A stretch of DNA of 64,000 nt from the NCBI GenBank assembly GCA_001543005.1, contig LFLB01000038.1, forward strand, positions 12,439 to 76,438. Direction: 5' to 3'. Source of the stretch: Candidatus Spongiihabitans thiooxidans. Its GTDB lineage: Bacteria > Pseudomonadota > Gammaproteobacteria > Arenicellales > Poriferihabitantaceae. Below are positions 51,001-57,000 of the stretch, in pieces. Each line of letters begins with the position of its first letter. Positions within the stretch are counted from its first letter, which is position 1. The position numbers were made by a program.

Positions 51001-54000
51001 CCGCAAATCAGGGTAGCCTATACCGACCTGTTCGTTTTGAGATTGCCGCATTGTGTTAATCGTGTACCTGTTTACCCTCTCATGCGCTTGCCATCTGGAT
51101 CGAACAGGGTCTCGGTAAACAGGGTGGCACGCCTGCGTTCACCCAGAATCTCAATCTCAACCTGCCGACCTTCCTCAATCAATGCAACTGGCAGGAAACC
51201 GATGGCCACGCTCTTTTGCGAATAGTGGGCATAGCCACCGGAGGTGACGAAGCCGACGACATTATTATCATGCCAGATTGGTTCATCTGCGACCACATCA
51301 GCGTCGTCTGCATCCACAATAAAAGTGCATAACTTTCTCGTTGTCCCCTGATTTTTTTCCGCCAGTGCCGCTTCTTTTCCAATAAAATCACGCGGCTTGT
51401 TATAAGCCACGAAACGATCCATACCGGTTTCCAGAGGCGTGTAATCGGGCTTGTATTCCCGCAACCATGCGCCGAAAGATTTTTCCAGACGAAGGCTCAT
51501 CATCGCGCGCATACCAAAAGGGCGTAGCCCTAAATCCCGGCCCGCCTCGTTAAGCACATGATACAGACCGACTTGTTGACTGGCCGGAACGTAAATTTCA
51601 TAGCCCAAATCACCGGTATAGGATACGCGCTGAACAATAGCCTGGCACGGACCGATCTGCATGTGTTGTACGCCAAGAAACGGTAGCGCATCGGTTGAAA
51701 CATCTCCGTACGCCACTCTGGATAATAACTCTCTTGATTTAGGCCCGGCAATCTGGAAACCAATGCGCTGTTGAGAGATGTTTCGGATCTCAACATCGGA
51801 CTCATACAGATGCTGTTCGAACCAGCGCATATGAAAAGACTGGGCAGCGTACGAGGCATTCATCTGGAATACCTCCAAACCCATTTCATCTTCACCCAGT
51901 CTTGATATCGTGAAATCCCCAATCAGCCGGCCGCGCGGGCTTAACATTGGCGACAAGGTTAATCTGCCTGGTTTTGGCATTCTTCCAACCATGATGGTAT
52001 CAATCCAGGCTTCCGCGCCTTGCCCTTTTACCTCGAATTTACTGAAATTATGGATTTCATTGATACCCACGCCATTACGTACCGCATTACATTCTTGTGC
52101 GACGACGGCAAAAGCATTGGAGCGTCGGAATGTCGGATTTTCATAAGGTTGTTCGCCCGGCGGTGCGAAATAGTTCACTTGCTCCATACCATATCCTGAA
52201 CCGAACACCGCATTGTGCTGCTGCCAGATTCCATAAGCCGGCGTGGTTTTGAACGGTCGTGCCGCCGGCAATTCTTCATTGGGGTAAGACACAGAAAATC
52301 GGCGTTGGTAGTTCTCGGTAACTTTTAGTCGGGTATAGGATTTGGTGCAGTAATCGCCAAAACGTGAAATATCCATCGCAAACACGTCCCGCGACGGCTC
52401 GCCTTCAATCATCCACTCGGCCAGAATCAACCCAACCCCGCCACCCTGACTGAAACCCGCCATTACGCCACAGGCCGACCAATAATTTCGTAACCCTGGC
52501 ACCGGCCCGACCAACGGATTGCCATCCGGCGCAAAGGTAAACGGGCCGTTAATGATTTGCTTAATGCCTGCTTTTGCCAGTACCGGATATCGCTTAAAGG
52601 CGTTGGCCATGGCATCGCCAATTCGATCAAGATTGTCCTCAAGCAGCTCGTGACCAAAATCCCAGGGGGTACCATCCACGGCCCACGGGACACATTGTTG
52701 TTCATAAAATCCGATAACCAGGCCCTGCCCTTCCTGACGCAAGTAGCTCTCGCCTTCCGGGTCCATGACATGGGGAAGCTCGGTGGGATGATTAACCACT
52801 TCAGCTATTTTTTCTGTGGCTAAATATTGATGCTCCATAGGATGCAATGGCAAATAAACCCCGGCCATTTCCCCGACTTCACGGGCCCATAATCCACCCG
52901 CATTGACCACGTGCTCGGCGATCAAATTGCCCTGTTCGGTAATGATCTCCCAGGTGCCATTACTATTCGGTTTAGTCTCTAAAACGCGATTGCGCAGTAT
53001 GATTTCAGCGCCCTGTTTTTTTGCTGCACGGGCATAGGCATGAGTGGTCCCGGATGGATCAAGATGTCCGTCCAAAGGATCGTAAAGCGCACCGAGCACA
53101 CCATCGGTATTGGTAATGGGCGATAACTCGCGTATTTCTTCAGGGGTAACCAGATGAGTATCCAACCCCATATAGCGATGTTTTGCCCGCTCTGCCCGCA
53201 GATAATCCATCCGGTCCGGTGAACCTGCCAGCGTGATGCCACCGACATGATGCAACCCGCAGCTTTGCCCGGAAATTTCCTCCAGTTCTTTGTACAAACC
53301 GATGGTATAGCCCTGCAAGGCAGCCATATTGGTATCCGCATTCAGGGTATGGAAGCCGCCAGCGGCATGCCAGGTCGAACCAGAGGTTAATTCTGAGCGC
53401 TCGATTAATGTGACATCGCTCCATCCCAATTTTGTCAGATGATAGAGCACGCTACACCCCACTACGCCGCCACCAATAATTGCGACTTGAGTATGTGTTT
53501 TCATAATTGTTTTTATATTTAGTGTTTTTTTGTAACTTACCAAATGGTAAAAGAAGGCTAATAACTTAAGTATTGTGTCCCTCTATTTTACTTTATCTGA
53601 CTGGTCAAATGCCATCCGTCGCTGTATGGGCACTTATATGTCGATAATTTTTGTTCTTGTTCTCGATACAATATTTGCGCTCTTTGTCGCGCGCCTTGTT
53701 CGGTTTCATAGAGTTCTTTTTTACTAGTGAATGCAAGGGGCCGATGGCGTTTGTCGAGCGGCAGGCGATAAATGCCAGTTGCCGCATTTTCTGCATTGAT
53801 ACGGCTTCATCATGGCATCGCCGGTTTGATTGGCATAGTCTGCCACTGACCTAGCATCCTGCGCATTGGAAAACTCGGTTACCGGGGCGCCAGTCGATTT
53901 GCTAAAGCATGTTGTGCTTTTTGAGGACATTAGTGAACTCCATCAGGATAGCGGTTGACAAATTTCATTATATCAAAATCGGTTTGTGAAAGCGCATGTT

Positions 54001-57000
54001 CTATGCCGACAGCGAGTATTGGTTCGCTATAACTATACTGTTGGTTGTCTTTATTAAAGAAAAAGCGACCGTATGGATCAATCATTAAATAGCTGTTTGT
54101 CATGCACTCGTTGTCTTCAAAAATAGCACACGCAATATGGCTATGTTTGTTTTTAAAAATCGCAAACTTCTCATCAGAAATTGCTTGCGCTGCGCTTCGG
54201 TAAGTGGCTGGCAGAACCCGTAATACCTTCCACTTATCCGGTTTAATGCGCTCAATTAACGGCGACAAATCTTCATTAAAATTAAACTGGTTAACCACTG
54301 TGTTAATTTTGATGCGAATATTCGGGTTGATTTGGCGTACCAACCACAACAGGTCAATGATTTTATTCTGGTCAACAAGTTTCTTGCTAACAGTTGCGCG
54401 TCCGATACTCAAATTGGTAGCGTCATCCAAACTATCAATGCTTACCCCTAACATGGTAATTTTCTCGCCGTTTTGGTGGATAAATCTGTCGCTCAACAAA
54501 CCACCATTGGTGATTAATGAAACCGCGAGGTCACAACGATGAGCATGAGCAATTTTTTCGGTAAGCTTTTTGTCCAGTAGTGGCTCACCACCAGCAAAAG
54601 AGATTCGCACTTTCCTACCGTGGCGTTGAAGTCCGGCAATCTGATCGATAAGATCTTTGGAATTATGTTCGCATCGATAAACATGTGGCAATTGGGTTTT
54701 CGACCATTCAGCGTAGCAATACTGACATTTGAACTGGCACGCTTCAAGTAGATGCCAGTTAGCGACTATCTGATCAAGGGTTTTTAATTTAGTAATTTTC
54801 ATCGTTTACACCTCATTCTGGATTCGTTACAATTACACGTATGTTTATTCATATTTGTGTTTTTACCCATTTAATAAGAATAAACCCAAAAATGAATATA
54901 ATACAAAAATTGGGTATTTCAAGATGATGAATCAAAAAATGCCTAATTTCACGACATATTCTTCTATTGTTGGTCAGGTTCTGGCTCAATACCGCAAAAA
55001 TCGTGGGTTAGAGCAGTCCGATATGGCTGAAAAAACAGGAATTACTCAATCTACTTGGTCTCGAATAGAGCGGGGGGAATCCACGCTGACATTAGAACAG
55101 TTGAATCAAATAGCGAATGGCCTTGGAATATCCCCTGAAAAAATAATGAGAGATATCACCCGTGCTCAGGAGACGATAATAAAGGAAGGCATCGAAATTG
55201 AAAGAAAGTCAACGTCAAAGAAACTCAACGCAGGGGCGATGATAGCAGCCGTTGCCTTGCCCGCATTAGCCTATTTTATTGGCAAAACATTTTCAGACAA
55301 AGATGCAAAACAAGAAGATGATGAATCTTAATTCACAATCAAACTCATAATTTCAGCCTGCAAGACAAAACTTTTCCGCTCTATACTTACCAAGCCGGCT
55401 TAATTTCACGCCTGCGTTTCTCTACATATTCATCTAATTGTTCTCGAATAGCGATATCCAATTCGGGTTCCTCGAAATCATTGAGAATTTGCTTGAATAA
55501 TTTGTTAGCGCGCTCGGCAGTTTGTACCGAACCATTTTCCTGCCACGTTTCAAAGTTACGCCAATCCGTCGCAATGGGTGCGTAAAACGCGTCTTTATAG
55601 CGCTCGATAGTATGGCTGGAGCCGAAAAAATGCCCGCCCGCACCGACCTGTTCGATAGCATCGAATGCTAATTCCGATTCGTTCACTTCGATTGGCTTGA
55701 GTGTCTCAACCATCATTTGCACCATTTCCATATCGACGATCAATTTTTCAAAAGAGGCGCACAATCCACCCTCCAGCCAGCCACCGCTGTGTTTGATCAT
55801 ATTGCCATGCGACATCACCGCAGACCAAAGCGACATACCGGATTCCCATGCTGCCTGAGCATCCACACAATTGGACGCATTAACATTGGAGGTTCGATAA
55901 GGAATGTTATACCGGCGGGCTAATTGGCCGCCTGCCAGAACCGCTTTGGCATATTCCGGCGTACCAAATGCCGGCGCACCAGACTTCATATCCACATTGG
56001 AGGTAAAGCCGCCATACATGGCTGGCGCGCCAGGGTTTACCATTTGTGTCACCGCTAACACCCCCAATGCCTCGGCATTTTGCTGTGCCAATGCACCCGC
56101 TAACGTCACCGGGCTCATCGCCCCGGCCAGGGTAAATGGCGTGACCACGACCGGCTGCCCAAATTCCGCCAAGGTCATCAGCCCATCCAGCATAAGGCCG
56201 TCTACTTTCAACGGTGAATTGGTATTGACCACCGTCATAATACTGGGTTGACTTTTAAGCGTTTCCTTGTCGATAGCGCGCGCCATACATATCATTTCAA
56301 TGGCATCTTCAATTTTTCCGTTGCCCAAACTATAGGCGTGCCAGGGTTTCTCCGTGAGCGTAATGAACGCGCGATAGGCATCAAGATGGCGATTGTGGGC
56401 AGGTAAATCGACCGGCTCAACCGGGTAACCGGAATGTGCGCCAATAACATTAAATGTTTGGCCCAGCTTCAGGAATTTACAGTAGTCTGCATAATTGCCG
56501 GTACGCCGCCCACCATCCAGATCAGAACAATTTGGCGCGCTGGCAACCAAAGTGAAATTGATATAATTACCACCATAAACAGAATTGAACTTTGGGTTGC
56601 GGGCATGAAGTGTAAACTGCGGCGGAATCGTGGCAATCTTTTCCAACACCATATTCCTGTCCATTTTGACGTAACCGGTTTTATCATCGATAGTCGCGCC
56701 ATGCTCCAGCATTAACTGCTGCGCCCGATCATTGACGATTTGCAATCCAATCCGCTCAAGAATTTTCATTGAGCTGTCATGGATAAGCTCAATGGATTCC
56801 TCGCTCAAAACCTGAATCGGCGCATAAGGGTTTTGTAGTTGCCGTACCGGTAATTGTTCGAGTTTGAAGACTGGCTTTTCCCGTACTTTATGGGAACGTC
56901 TGCTCATGGATTACAACTGCTCCTGATTACAACAAAATATTGATGTGCCCGCCGAATATAATGAATATCAATTGGTAAAGATATAAATTTATGGTCAACC

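What the first reader, a model, noticed from the sequence alone, without database searches (positions are those of the whole stretch)
53588..55331. Viperin-like (pVip) antiviral islet inserted between two methylamine-catabolism genes
Seen directly: a ~1.8-kb segment between the DMGDH-like gene (start 53504) and the MttB-family gene (stop 55387) contains three elements.
- A 290-aa radical SAM protein that aligns block by block with human viperin (CxxxCxxC, GGEP, NG, KINTV..FN, KWKV, SYL.D.Y.RF).
- A translationally coupled small ORF.
- A divergently transcribed XRE regulator with a membrane anchor.

Established knowledge: prokaryotic viperins make 3'-deoxy-3',4'-didehydro-nucleotide chain terminators as anti-phage defence, and they usually sit in defence islands, often next to nucleotide kinases.

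Here there is no kinase. The partner is an uncharacterised small cysteine-motif protein, so this may be an undescribed pVip configuration.
Basis: partly seen in the sequence, partly recalled or inferred. Interest (0 to 1): 0.8.

Follow-up and report, generated by a model that had tools for sequence, protein, structure and literature searches.

The report
Viperin islet with broken zinc partner
A 1.9-kb piece of foreign DNA between two methylamine-catabolism genes carries a genuine bacterial viperin (an enzyme that makes antiviral nucleotide analogues), its own repressor, and a frameshifted copy of a zinc-binding partner protein that follows viperin genes in many marine bacteria and that I could not find described anywhere.

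Summary
The 290-aa radical SAM protein (53930-54802, minus strand) is a true prokaryotic viperin. It scores 315 bits against NCBIfam NF038283 (cut-off 180) and 3e-89 against the PADLOC pVip model. It aligns full-length with solved viperins at 1e-35, against 9e-7 for MoaA.

The islet is a real insertion. Two close relatives (Ca. Spongiihabitans, flanks 90-95% identical in DNA) have mttB and the DMGDH gene 101-103 bp apart. The window has 1,881 bp there, at lower G+C.

The "small ORF" is the 5' part of a 113-codon gene broken by one extra A at 53725 (TGT to TAGT). Intact orthologues (105-120 aa) have two homologous zinc-knuckle repeats ending in WHL[ST]. They lie directly 3' of pVip in every examined locus of two pVip clades. 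In one spirochaete a single repeat is fused to pVip. In cyanobacterial relatives a thymidylate-kinase-like gene takes the same position.

The partner family has at least 1,491 cluster representatives. It has no Pfam, NCBIfam or PADLOC model, no PDB fold match, and no mention in the papers I could search.

The XRE regulator is real and has a C-terminal hydrophobic helix, but it is not conserved with pVip elsewhere.

Verdict: known effector, previously uncurated accessory module, decayed in this strain.

The parts
53507..55387 (.). Inserted islet (1,881 bp). It replaces the 101-103-bp mttB-DMGDH spacer seen in close relatives.
   Evidence: BLASTN of L175 and L176 against the window: homology of 90% ends at 55388 and homology of 94-95% resumes at 53506. 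Gene maps of L175 and L176. G+C dip to 0.36-0.42.
53930..54802 (-). pVip: prokaryotic viperin, a radical SAM ddhNTP synthase. 290 aa, intact.
   Evidence: NF038283 at 315.4 bits (cut-off 180). PADLOC pVip at 3.4e-89. Solved viperins 6b4c, 5vsl and 7n7h at 1e-33 to 1e-35 over the full length. GAGGTG Shine-Dalgarno sequence upstream.
53724..53930 (-). Partner gene, 5' fragment (the 68-aa ORF). It holds repeat 1 (TC...YQCRKCGNWHLS) and the first Cys of the repeat-2 CxxC. It ends at a premature TAG.
   Evidence: Partner HMM positions 1-66, 6.2e-24. TAATG overlap with the pVip stop.
53725..53725 (-). Single-base insertion (A on the minus strand) that breaks the partner gene: TGT (Cys) to TAGT.
   Evidence: DNA alignment A4 against L002, L003 and L004. 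Removing it restores a 113-codon ORF. The same base is present in Logan contig L001.
53588..53723 (-). Partner gene, 3' fragment in the +1 frame (KKELYETEQGARQRAQILYREQEQKLSTYKCPYSDGWHLTSQIK*). It has no start codon of its own until 27 codons before the stop.
   Evidence: Three-frame translation. Partner HMM positions 75-117, 2e-16.
54924..55331 (+). XRE/Cro-C1-family HTH regulator, 135 aa, with a C-terminal hydrophobic (putative transmembrane) helix.
   Evidence: HTH_31 at 4.3e-14 and HTH_3 at 1.4e-13. Gene call of 135 aa in L001. Hydropathy.
54803..54923 (.). Divergent control region. It has promoter-like sites for pVip (minus strand, 54922-54895) and for XRE (plus strand, 54805-54833). It also has an inverted repeat at 54843-54855 / 54873-54885, a candidate operator.
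   Evidence: Consensus scan (the number of sites is not above shuffled expectation). Inverted repeat I3, 13 nt, 92% complementary. Function is inferred only.

Best explanation
This is a small, horizontally acquired anti-phage islet. It replaced the short spacer of an mttB-DMGDH operon in a gammaproteobacterium closely related to Candidatus Spongiihabitans.

The effector is an intact prokaryotic viperin. By established viperin chemistry, it uses a [4Fe-4S] cluster and SAM to dehydrate a ribonucleoside triphosphate to a 3'-deoxy-3',4'-didehydro-NTP. That product terminates phage RNA synthesis.

Expression is probably set by the divergently transcribed XRE-family repressor, acting on the shared promoter region. 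This step is inferred.

The gene immediately downstream of pVip and translationally coupled to it encodes an accessory protein of about 110 aa. It is built from two homologous beta-beta-alpha-beta-beta zinc-knuckle repeats (C...CxxC..WHLS and CxxC...C....GWHLT). I infer that in intact systems it binds pVip as a stoichiometric regulatory or targeting subunit. It occupies the slot that a nucleotide kinase fills in sister loci.

In this strain a 1-nt insertion has cut the accessory gene after repeat 1. The islet therefore now runs as a stand-alone pVip, possibly with a one-repeat remnant, or it is starting to decay.
For: Viperin identity.

Insertion: empty sites in L175 and L176 with 90-95% identical flanks. 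mttB is immediately followed by DMGDH (gaps of 65-276 bp) in seven more distant metagenome loci. G+C dip.

The partner is a real, conserved gene:
- A 106-aa orthologue matches the repaired reading at 51% identity over 96% of its length.
- The profile search found 118 clusters in one database and 1,491 representatives in another.
- The AlphaFold model has pLDDT 93.2.
- The two halves are homologous to each other (hhalign 97.6%, E 3.6e-12).

Linkage to pVip:
- The partner lies directly 3' of pVip, from a 4-nt overlap to a 9-nt gap, in L002-L005, L044, L045, L047, L085, L086, L168-L174 and L177.
- These loci fall in two separate pVip clades.
- A single repeat is fused N-terminally to pVip in Ca. 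Haliotispira prima, L008.
- A Thymidylate_kin gene sits at the same position in cyanobacterial members of the window's clade.

Lesion.

XRE and operator candidates.
Against: - No biochemical or phenotypic data exist for this pVip clade or for the partner.
- The partner's role is inferred only from linkage and one fusion.
- One divergent family member (P0228, L087) follows an unrelated 219-aa gene rather than pVip, so the family is not strictly viperin-specific.
- The XRE gene is not found next to pVip in any other locus examined. Its regulatory link is inferred from position only.
- The count of promoter-like sites is no higher than in shuffled sequence.
- The islet stands alone between metabolic genes, not in a defence island.
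- The frameshift is seen in two assemblies that may derive from the same reads, so a consensus error is not fully excluded.
- The pVip tree is a quick neighbour-joining tree without support values.
Confidence: 0.8

Rival explanations
1. The 68-aa ORF is a functional, deliberately short one-repeat partner, rather than a pseudogene fragment. Repeat 1 alone would be enough to serve pVip.
For: The fragment keeps its start codon, its Shine-Dalgarno sequence and its coupling to pVip. It also keeps all four putative ligands of repeat 1: C8, C46, C49 and H53. Single-repeat proteins of this fold exist in phages. The pVip fusion in L008 carries one repeat only.
Against: All 16 or more pVip-linked orthologues examined have two repeats. 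The downstream +1 frame still encodes a perfect repeat 2, and a single-base deletion restores the canonical gene. This pattern points to a very recent loss, not to an evolved short form. The repeat fused in L008 is of the repeat-2 type (HMM positions 62-117), whereas the window retains repeat 1.
Confidence: 0.15
2. The frameshift is a sequencing or assembly artefact. The real genome carries an intact two-repeat partner, so the islet is a fully functional pVip-partner system.
For: It is a single-base difference lying two bases upstream of an A6 run. The window and L001 may come from the same read set (SRR2064712), so they are not independent.
Against: Two different assemblers give the identical sequence. 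The extra base lies in TGT, not within the homopolymer. Consensus-level single-base insertions are uncommon in short-read assemblies (my own knowledge).
Confidence: 0.12
3. The partner is not a regulatory or targeting subunit. It is a redox or metal helper: a rubredoxin-like electron donor or Fe-S/metal chaperone that reduces or loads the radical SAM cluster of pVip.
For: It has two Cys-rich knuckle sites per protein. It is tightly coupled to a radical SAM enzyme, which needs a one-electron donor (established radical SAM chemistry). One fused family member gives a weak HypA-like (metallochaperone) Pfam hit, 19 bits against a cut-off of 28.9.
Against: Each site has ligands of Cys3-His type with an invariant Trp-His. 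This resembles structural treble-clef or zinc-ribbon sites more than the Cys4 iron site of rubredoxin. There are weak DUF4379 and Zn_ribbon_3 hits. There is no fold match to rubredoxin or any PDB entry. Single-repeat homologues are common in phages that carry no radical SAM gene. P0228 pairs with a protein that is not a radical SAM enzyme.
Confidence: 0.12
4. The radical SAM enzyme is a metabolic or cofactor enzyme (MoaA- or NirJ-like, or Ophion OpnA-like) recruited to methylamine catabolism. It is not an antiviral viperin.
For: It sits between two methylamine or betaine catabolism genes on the same strand. No other defence gene is adjacent.
Against: MoaA and NirJ models score 42-65 bits against cut-offs of 284-650, while the viperin equivalog scores 315 against 180. 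The PDB search gives viperins at 1e-35 over the full length and MoaA at 9e-7 over part of the length. Close relatives run the same operon without it. Its orthologues sit in unrelated genomic contexts.
Confidence: 0.02

Closest known systems
Prokaryotic viperins (pVips), stand-alone or kinase-linked. Source: Bernheim et al., Nature 2021, cited from memory because the paper was not retrievable here. Also Shomar et al., bioRxiv 10.1101/2023.09.13.557418.
   Same: Same enzyme family by curated HMMs and by alignment to solved viperins. Horizontally mobile, in varied genomic contexts. A downstream accessory gene sits in the position where cyanobacterial relatives carry a thymidylate-kinase-like gene.
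   Different: There is no kinase. The accessory gene is a tandem zinc-knuckle protein with no curated family. The islet is a lone 1.9-kb insert inside a catabolic operon, not part of a defence island. Shomar et al. report kinases next to 12% of bacterial viperins and do not mention this partner.
pVip loci with adjacent HicA or RelE toxin genes (Gerdes, bioRxiv 10.1101/2023.12.08.570793)
   Same: A small gene immediately adjacent to pVip, of unknown contribution to defence. One partner-bearing locus (Alteromonas portus, L085) also has a ParE-like toxin gene directly upstream of pVip.
   Different: The partner is not HicA or RelE. It gives no Pfam hit. The predicted fold is two beta-beta-alpha-beta-beta zinc repeats, not the alpha-beta-beta-beta-alpha dsRBD-like HicA fold or the RelE RNase fold.
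Human viperin (RSAD2) with CMPK2
   Same: Same catalytic core. The window protein aligns with mouse viperin 5vsl at 1.8e-33. Both follow the principle of a genetically linked helper gene.
   Different: There is no N-terminal amphipathic helix. The helper is not a nucleotide kinase.
XRE/C-protein-type controllers of defence genes (restriction-modification C proteins, CapH of CBASS)
   Same: The XRE protein hits the PADLOC 'Control_protein' (1.3e-8) and 'capH' (1.2e-6) models. It is divergently arranged next to a defence effector, with an inverted repeat in the shared promoter region.
   Different: It carries a C-terminal hydrophobic helix. No CapP-like protease partner is present. It is not conserved with pVip in other loci.
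Small uncharacterised phage proteins (phrog_15216, phrog_3424, phrog_10414; for example Mycobacterium phage Wildcat Q19Y54)
   Same: A single repeat of the partner matches them in sequence (1.9e-8 to 1.2e-4) and in predicted fold (Foldseek probability 1.0, target TM-score 0.5-0.7).
   Different: The phage proteins have one repeat and no known function. The pVip-linked proteins are tandem two-repeat versions encoded by the host.

Membership tests
Prokaryotic viperin (pVip; NCBIfam NF038283 viperin_w_prok) | Radical SAM CxxxCxxC cluster motif and SAM-binding GGEP motif | tested here: met
   C22-x3-C26-x2-C29 and FAGGEP are in the translation. PF04055 at 5.2e-14. These residues are invariant across 36 clade members.
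Prokaryotic viperin (pVip; NCBIfam NF038283 viperin_w_prok) | Full-length score above the curated viperin-specific cut-off, and better than any other radical SAM family | tested here: met
   315.4 bits against a cut-off of 180, covering model positions 2-280 of 281. The next non-viperin family is MoaA, at 64.6 bits against a cut-off of 284. PADLOC pVip at 3.4e-89.
Prokaryotic viperin (pVip; NCBIfam NF038283 viperin_w_prok) | Viperin-specific C-terminal extension (KWK, SY[LI].D..[GM]RF) aligned with solved viperins | tested here: met
   phmmer alignment to 6b4c_A spans residues 12-284 and includes KINTVVN, KWKV and SYLMIDPYGRF.
Prokaryotic viperin (pVip; NCBIfam NF038283 viperin_w_prok) | Produces ddhCTP, ddhUTP or ddhGTP and protects against phage | not testable with these tools
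   Requires LC-MS and plaque assays.
Prokaryotic viperin (pVip; NCBIfam NF038283 viperin_w_prok) | Usually located among other defence genes (a tendency, not a strict criterion) | tested here: not met
   The neighbours are MttB, DMGDH, a PhnD-like protein and a HAD hydrolase. Orthologous modules elsewhere do sit near CHAT, ParE-like, HipA-coupled, TniQ and UvrD/PD-(D/E)xK genes.
Kinase-associated pVip configuration | Nucleotide kinase gene within about 3 genes of pVip, or fused to it | tested here: not met
   No kinase lies in 53507-55387. The sister cyanobacterial loci L006 and L007 do have Thymidylate_kin genes.
HicA/RelE-associated pVip configuration | Adjacent small gene is a HicA or RelE RNase | tested here: not met
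   No Pfam, NCBIfam or PADLOC hit for the partner. The predicted fold is two zinc-knuckle repeats.
pVip + tandem WHL[ST] zinc-knuckle partner (module proposed here) | Two-repeat partner gene directly 3' of pVip, overlapping it or within 10 nt | tested here: inconclusive
   The gene is present and coupled (TAATG overlap), but it is split by a 1-nt insertion at 53725. It is intact in 16 or more other loci.
XRE / Cro-C1 HTH regulators | HTH_3-type helix-turn-helix domain above the Pfam cut-off | tested here: met
   HTH_31 at 53 bits (cut-off 27). HTH_3 at 51.1 bits (cut-off 23).
   MoaA scores 64.6 against 284. NirJ scores 42.1 against 515. NirJ1 and NirJ2 score 47-52 against 500-650.

The most novel reading that the evidence does not exclude
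The tandem WHL[ST] zinc-knuckle protein is an obligate second subunit that defines a distinct two-component class of viperin systems. For example, it might be a sensor or gate that keeps pVip inactive until it meets a phage component, or that directs pVip to the phage transcription machinery. Under this reading, the abundant single-repeat homologues in phages would be decoys or inhibitors of that interaction. The domain family would then be a new, widespread host-virus interface module.
Probability: 0.2. Interest if true: 0.8.

Novelty: new variant of a known kind. Interest (0 to 1): 0.6.

Why it matters
pVips are treated as single-gene systems, or as systems helped by kinases. This finding points to a second conserved accessory. 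It recurs in two pVip clades, is fused to pVip once, and replaces the kinase at the same position.

The accessory has a confidently predicted fold with no solved relative and no curated family. One-repeat relatives are common in phages.

If it regulates or targets viperin, it would bear on an open question: how bacterial viperins are controlled, and how they avoid poisoning host transcription.

The window itself adds a clean natural example of defence-gene gain, with empty sites in sister genomes. That gain was followed almost at once by loss of the accessory gene through a single-base insertion.

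Tried and rejected
- Looked for att sites or target-site duplications at the islet ends. The direct and inverted repeats found are short and look like chance. The relatives' 101-bp spacer does not align to either edge better than shuffled sequence does (score 25 against a shuffle mean of 26.9). No integrase or transposase lies in the insert.
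- Exact-sequence look-ups of the window's MttB, DMGDH and pVip proteins returned only the same strain. The empty site came instead from members of the 90% MttB cluster.
- The metagenome scan with MttB gave only relatives of 63% identity or less. These were useful only for the general mttB-DMGDH adjacency.
- The partner profile A3 was too divergent for a pattern scan. A scan of IMG/VR with A2 found no viral copy of the two-repeat partner.
- Foldseek against the PDB found nothing better than E 1.3. A PDB sequence-profile search found nothing meaningful.
- The 219-aa gene upstream of the divergent partner P0228 has no recognisable family.
- No partner domain was found inside any of the 120 pVip homologues from the protein search. 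The only fusion seen is L008.
- Programmed +1 frameshifting or readthrough at CAC-TAG-T was considered and rejected. There is no slippery P-site pairing, and the product would still lack Cys64.
- Bernheim et al. 2021 could not be retrieved, so statements about it rest on my memory. P0136 is not on record for a context look-up.

Full report
**1. What is in the sequence**

ORF listing and translation confirm three elements between the DMGDH-like gene (51072-53504, minus strand) and the MttB-family gene (55387-56907, minus strand); their Pfam assignments are.
- A 290-aa ORF lies at 53930-54802 (minus strand). It carries CQFKCQYC, FAGGEPLL, ITNGG, KINTVVNQFN, DKWKVLRV and NSYLMIDPYGRFF.
- A 68-aa ORF lies at 53724-53930 (minus strand). 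Its ATG overlaps the upstream stop codon as TAATG.
- A divergent ORF lies at 54855-55331 (plus strand).

The divergent ORF most likely starts at 54924, giving 135 aa, which is also the gene call in an independent assembly. It is an XRE/Cro-C1 HTH protein: HTH_31 scores 4.3e-14 and HTH_3 scores 1.4e-13. It has a C-terminal hydrophobic stretch at residues about 101-120.

G+C falls to 0.36-0.42 across 53400-55400. The flanking genes are at about 0.50.

**2. The radical SAM protein is a viperin**

- It scores 315.4 bits against NCBIfam NF038283 ("viperin family antiviral radical SAM protein", cut-off 180), matched end to end.
- MoaA, NirJ and other maturase models score 42-65 bits against cut-offs of 284-650.
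- PADLOC pVip models give 3.4e-89 and 2e-88.
- Against PDB sequences, the nine best hits are viperins or viperin-like enzymes, such as 6b4c, 5vsl and 7n7h. They score 1e-33 to 1e-35 across residues 12-284. MoaA follows at 9e-7 over the N-terminal half only.

The catalytic mechanism comes from established viperin biochemistry and was not tested here: reductive cleavage of SAM, H-atom abstraction at C4', dehydration of an NTP to a ddhNTP, and chain termination of viral RNA synthesis.

**3. The islet is an insertion**

The 90%-identity cluster of the window's MttB contains a protein from Candidatus Spongiihabitans sp. (Gammaproteobacteria, Arenicellales) and one from a metagenome contig. Their loci, L175 and L176, show the same order: PhnD-like (minus), MttB (plus), DMGDH (plus), HAD hydrolase (minus). 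Only 101 and 103 bp separate mttB from the DMGDH gene, and there is no XRE, pVip or partner.

BLASTN shows 90% identity up to window position 55388 (the first base after the MttB stop codon) and 94-95% identity from 53506, two bases before the DMGDH start codon. Nothing aligns in between. The insert is therefore 53507-55387, or 1,881 bp.

Seven much more distant metagenome loci also have mttB followed directly by the DMGDH gene, with gaps of 65-276 bp. The islet therefore interrupts what is normally an operon.

I found no target-site duplication, att-like repeat or mobility gene. The second refutation condition, that the trio is conserved within the betaine/methylamine operon, is contradicted.

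**4. The small ORF is half of a broken gene**

Three-frame translation of 53560-53960 shows that the motif YQCRKCGNWHLS in the 68-aa ORF recurs as YKCPYSDGWHLTS in the +1 frame. That second reading ends at a TAA at 53588-53590.

A conceptual fusion of the two readings matched a 106-aa metagenome protein, P0001, at 51% identity over 96% of its length. P0001 lies directly 3' of a 290-aa radical SAM gene with the same 1-nt overlap.

A DNA alignment with three orthologues shows one extra A at window position 53725. It converts a Cys codon into TAGT, giving both the premature TAG and the frameshift. Deleting it restores a 113-codon ORF with all conserved residues, including the CIHC knuckle. An HMM of the family hits the two pieces separately: positions 1-66 at 6e-24 and positions 75-117 at 2e-16.

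The Logan assembly of run SRR2064712 carries the same lesion. It may share reads with the window's source assembly. Because repeat 2 is otherwise undamaged, the disruption is very recent, if it is real.

**5. What the partner is**

Eight orthologues align with the following invariant residues: Cys6, Tyr39-x-Cys41-x-x-Cys44-x-x-Trp-His-Leu, Cys61, Tyr93 and Gly-Trp-His-Leu-Thr. Cys64 (with Cys61, the CxxC knuckle) is present in every intact sequence and is the residue lost in the window. With 67 sequences the same set is at least 90% conserved.

The two halves are homologous to each other (hhalign probability 97.6%, E 3.6e-12). AlphaFold2 with this alignment gives a confident model, with mean pLDDT 93.2, of two beta-beta-alpha-beta-beta units. 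In each unit, three Cys and one His lie on the hairpins. This is the arrangement of a zinc knuckle or treble clef. That reading is my inference, supported only by weak DUF4379 and Zn_ribbon_3 hits.

- No Pfam, NCBIfam or PADLOC family matches.
- No PDB fold or sequence matches.
- Single repeats do match uncharacterised phage families: phrog_15216 at 1.9e-8 and phrog_3424 at 6e-6.
- Single repeats also match predicted structures of small actinophage proteins (Foldseek probability 1.0).

The family is sizeable. It has 118 clusters in the word-indexed search. In an exhaustive profile search it has 1,491 representatives at E of 1e-3 or below, and 84 at 1e-30 or below. Most members have two WH[L] motifs. 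Some have three to five, and some have N-terminal extensions with sub-threshold similarity to CdiI_3 immunity domains.

**6. Linkage to pVip**

Among 80 pVip loci fetched from species-representative genomes, a regex scan and an HMM scan found the intact partner immediately downstream of pVip in six loci:
- L003, L004 and L005, which are marine gammaproteobacterial MAGs.
- L044 and L045 (Colwellia) and L047 (Pseudoalteromonas sp. H105).

A seventh locus, L008 (Candidatus Haliotispira prima), has a single repeat fused in frame to the N-terminus of pVip.

Look-ups starting from partner proteins gave the same arrangement in Alteromonas portus (L085), Pseudoalteromonas sp. A41-2 and five metagenome contigs (L168-L173), Vibrio sp. 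404 (L174), and next to the closest pVip homologue, P0003 at 68% identity (L177).

The only exception is the most divergent member tested, P0228. It follows an unknown 219-aa gene inside a Tn7-like element, beside a TIR-domain gene.

A neighbour-joining tree places the partner-linked pVips in two separate clades. The L008 fusion is sister to the window's clade. Two cyanobacterial pVips (Phormidium sp. OSCR and Geitlerinema) are nested in the window's clade, and they carry a Thymidylate_kin gene exactly where the partner sits.

Three facts together argue that the partner works physically with pVip:
- Adjacency is strict, ranging from a 4-nt overlap to a 9-nt gap.
- It recurs across two clades.
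- There is a natural fusion.

Replacement by a kinase at the same position suggests the slot holds alternative helpers. What the partner does is not shown. My preferred reading is a zinc-stabilised regulatory or targeting subunit, at roughly 0.4 among the alternatives. An electron-donor or metal-chaperone role and an independent effector role are less likely, for the reasons given under the rival explanations.

**7. Comparison with what is known**

In the papers I could search, the reported pVip neighbours are nucleotide kinases, next to 12% of bacterial viperins (Shomar et al., 10.1101/2023.09.13.557418), and HicA or RelE toxins (Gerdes, 10.1101/2023.12.08.570793). Neither paper mentions a zinc-knuckle partner, and no other paper found by five full-text searches does so. 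The original pVip paper (Bernheim et al. 2021) was not retrievable. An unremarked appearance in its neighbourhood figures cannot be excluded.

The XRE gene resembles the controller proteins that flank many defence genes, with PADLOC Control_protein and capH hits. However, it has no counterpart in any other pVip locus held here. In the window's clade, that position is instead taken by a conserved gene of about 135 aa and a secreted Cys-rich gene of about 100 aa, both without a family. In the other clade the position is taken by an ankyrin-repeat protein of about 900 aa.

The conserved unit is therefore pVip plus partner, and the regulatory or auxiliary genes around it are interchangeable.

**8. 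Verdict**

The interpretation as a viperin islet inserted into a catabolic operon is supported by direct empty-site evidence.

The enzyme is a new member of a known family. The pVip-partner module is a new variant of a known kind of system and is not represented in current curated resources.

In this particular window the accessory gene is broken. The window is therefore best used as a pointer to the intact modules in Pseudoalteromonas, Alteromonas, Vibrio, Colwellia and several marine MAGs.

Noticed in passing
L002 8069-8994, L003 5063-5939, L004 5069-5914, L005 3715-4731, L177 4049-4781: In the window's pVip clade, the pVip-partner pair is preceded by two further conserved genes without any family. 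One is a secreted Cys-rich protein of about 100 aa (signal peptide, '...ENRFS..EY...C.C..'). The other is a divergently oriented protein of about 135 aa ('EC..LYEEI...WEKNKATK.TL..L..LR'). In L002 the second one looks split. Together they suggest a four-gene cassette, of which the window keeps only two genes.
   Followed up: partly
L047 3089-5842, L045 3090-5843, L168 2190-4943, L174 2227-4929: In the second partner-bearing pVip clade (Pseudoalteromonas, Colwellia, Vibrio sp. 404), an ankyrin-repeat protein of 900-917 aa is divergently transcribed from pVip. It matches the PADLOC model PDLC02908 'Ankyrin' end to end (E 0 to 1e-269). That model is numbered just after the pVip models. I could not establish which system PADLOC assigns it to.
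   Followed up: partly
L008 5695-6867 (Candidatus Haliotispira prima, NZ_CP123443): There is a natural fusion. A single repeat-2-type zinc-knuckle domain (CPFCWGC...VYPCRWQSLVYHLTKS) is joined by a linker of about 50 residues to the N-terminus of a full pVip.
   Followed up: yes
L005 6041-6505: A second, longer paralogue of the partner follows the first partner gene directly. It has WHLA and GGWHLTE motifs and a C-terminal extension.
   Followed up: no
L087 5327-6375 (Logan ERR12040009): The most divergent partner homologue, P0228, sits behind an unknown 219-aa gene rather than pVip. This pair lies in the cargo of a Tn7-like element (TniB, TniQ/TnsD), next to TIR-domain, SRAP and DUF4917 genes. 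The partner family may therefore pair with other effectors.
   Followed up: partly
L085 4841-7559 (Alteromonas portus SWCO01000005): A ParE-like toxin gene lies directly upstream of the pVip-partner pair. An HTH_3 gene and a HipA-coupling-domain gene lie downstream, and a CHAT-domain protein is nearby. This is a defence-island-like setting, unlike that of the window.
   Followed up: no
P0274, P0290, P0312, P0227 (partner-family proteins of 217-238 aa): Four family members carry an N-terminal extension of about 100 aa. It gives recurrent but sub-threshold hits to the CdiI_3 immunity-protein family (18-21 bits against a cut-off of 28).
   Followed up: no
P0239, P0240, P0247 (363-542 aa): These are multi-repeat versions, with 4-5 zinc-knuckle units separated by low-complexity Ser/Thr/Asn/Gly linkers. 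Their composition looks eukaryotic or giant-virus-like. Their origin is unknown.
   Followed up: no
L175 1-6931 and L176 1-6436, compared with window positions above 57980: Synteny with the Ca. Spongiihabitans relatives breaks beyond the PhnD-like gene. The relatives carry an N6/N4 DNA methylase, a ResIII helicase and an APH/Peptidase_M23/aminotransferase gene there. The window strain has epimerase and creatinase/M24 peptidase genes instead. The region is a variable spot on both sides.
   Followed up: no
window 53505-53590: No terminator-like site was found between the partner remnant and the DMGDH start. The insertion removed the native mttB-DMGDH spacer. The DMGDH gene may therefore now depend on read-through from the islet or on a new promoter.
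   Followed up: no
window 1572-1648, 9561-9637, 25043-25133 (all minus strand): The only RNA genes detected in the window are tRNA-Pro(GGG), tRNA-Val(GAC) and tRNA-Ser(GGA). None is near the islet.
   Followed up: yes
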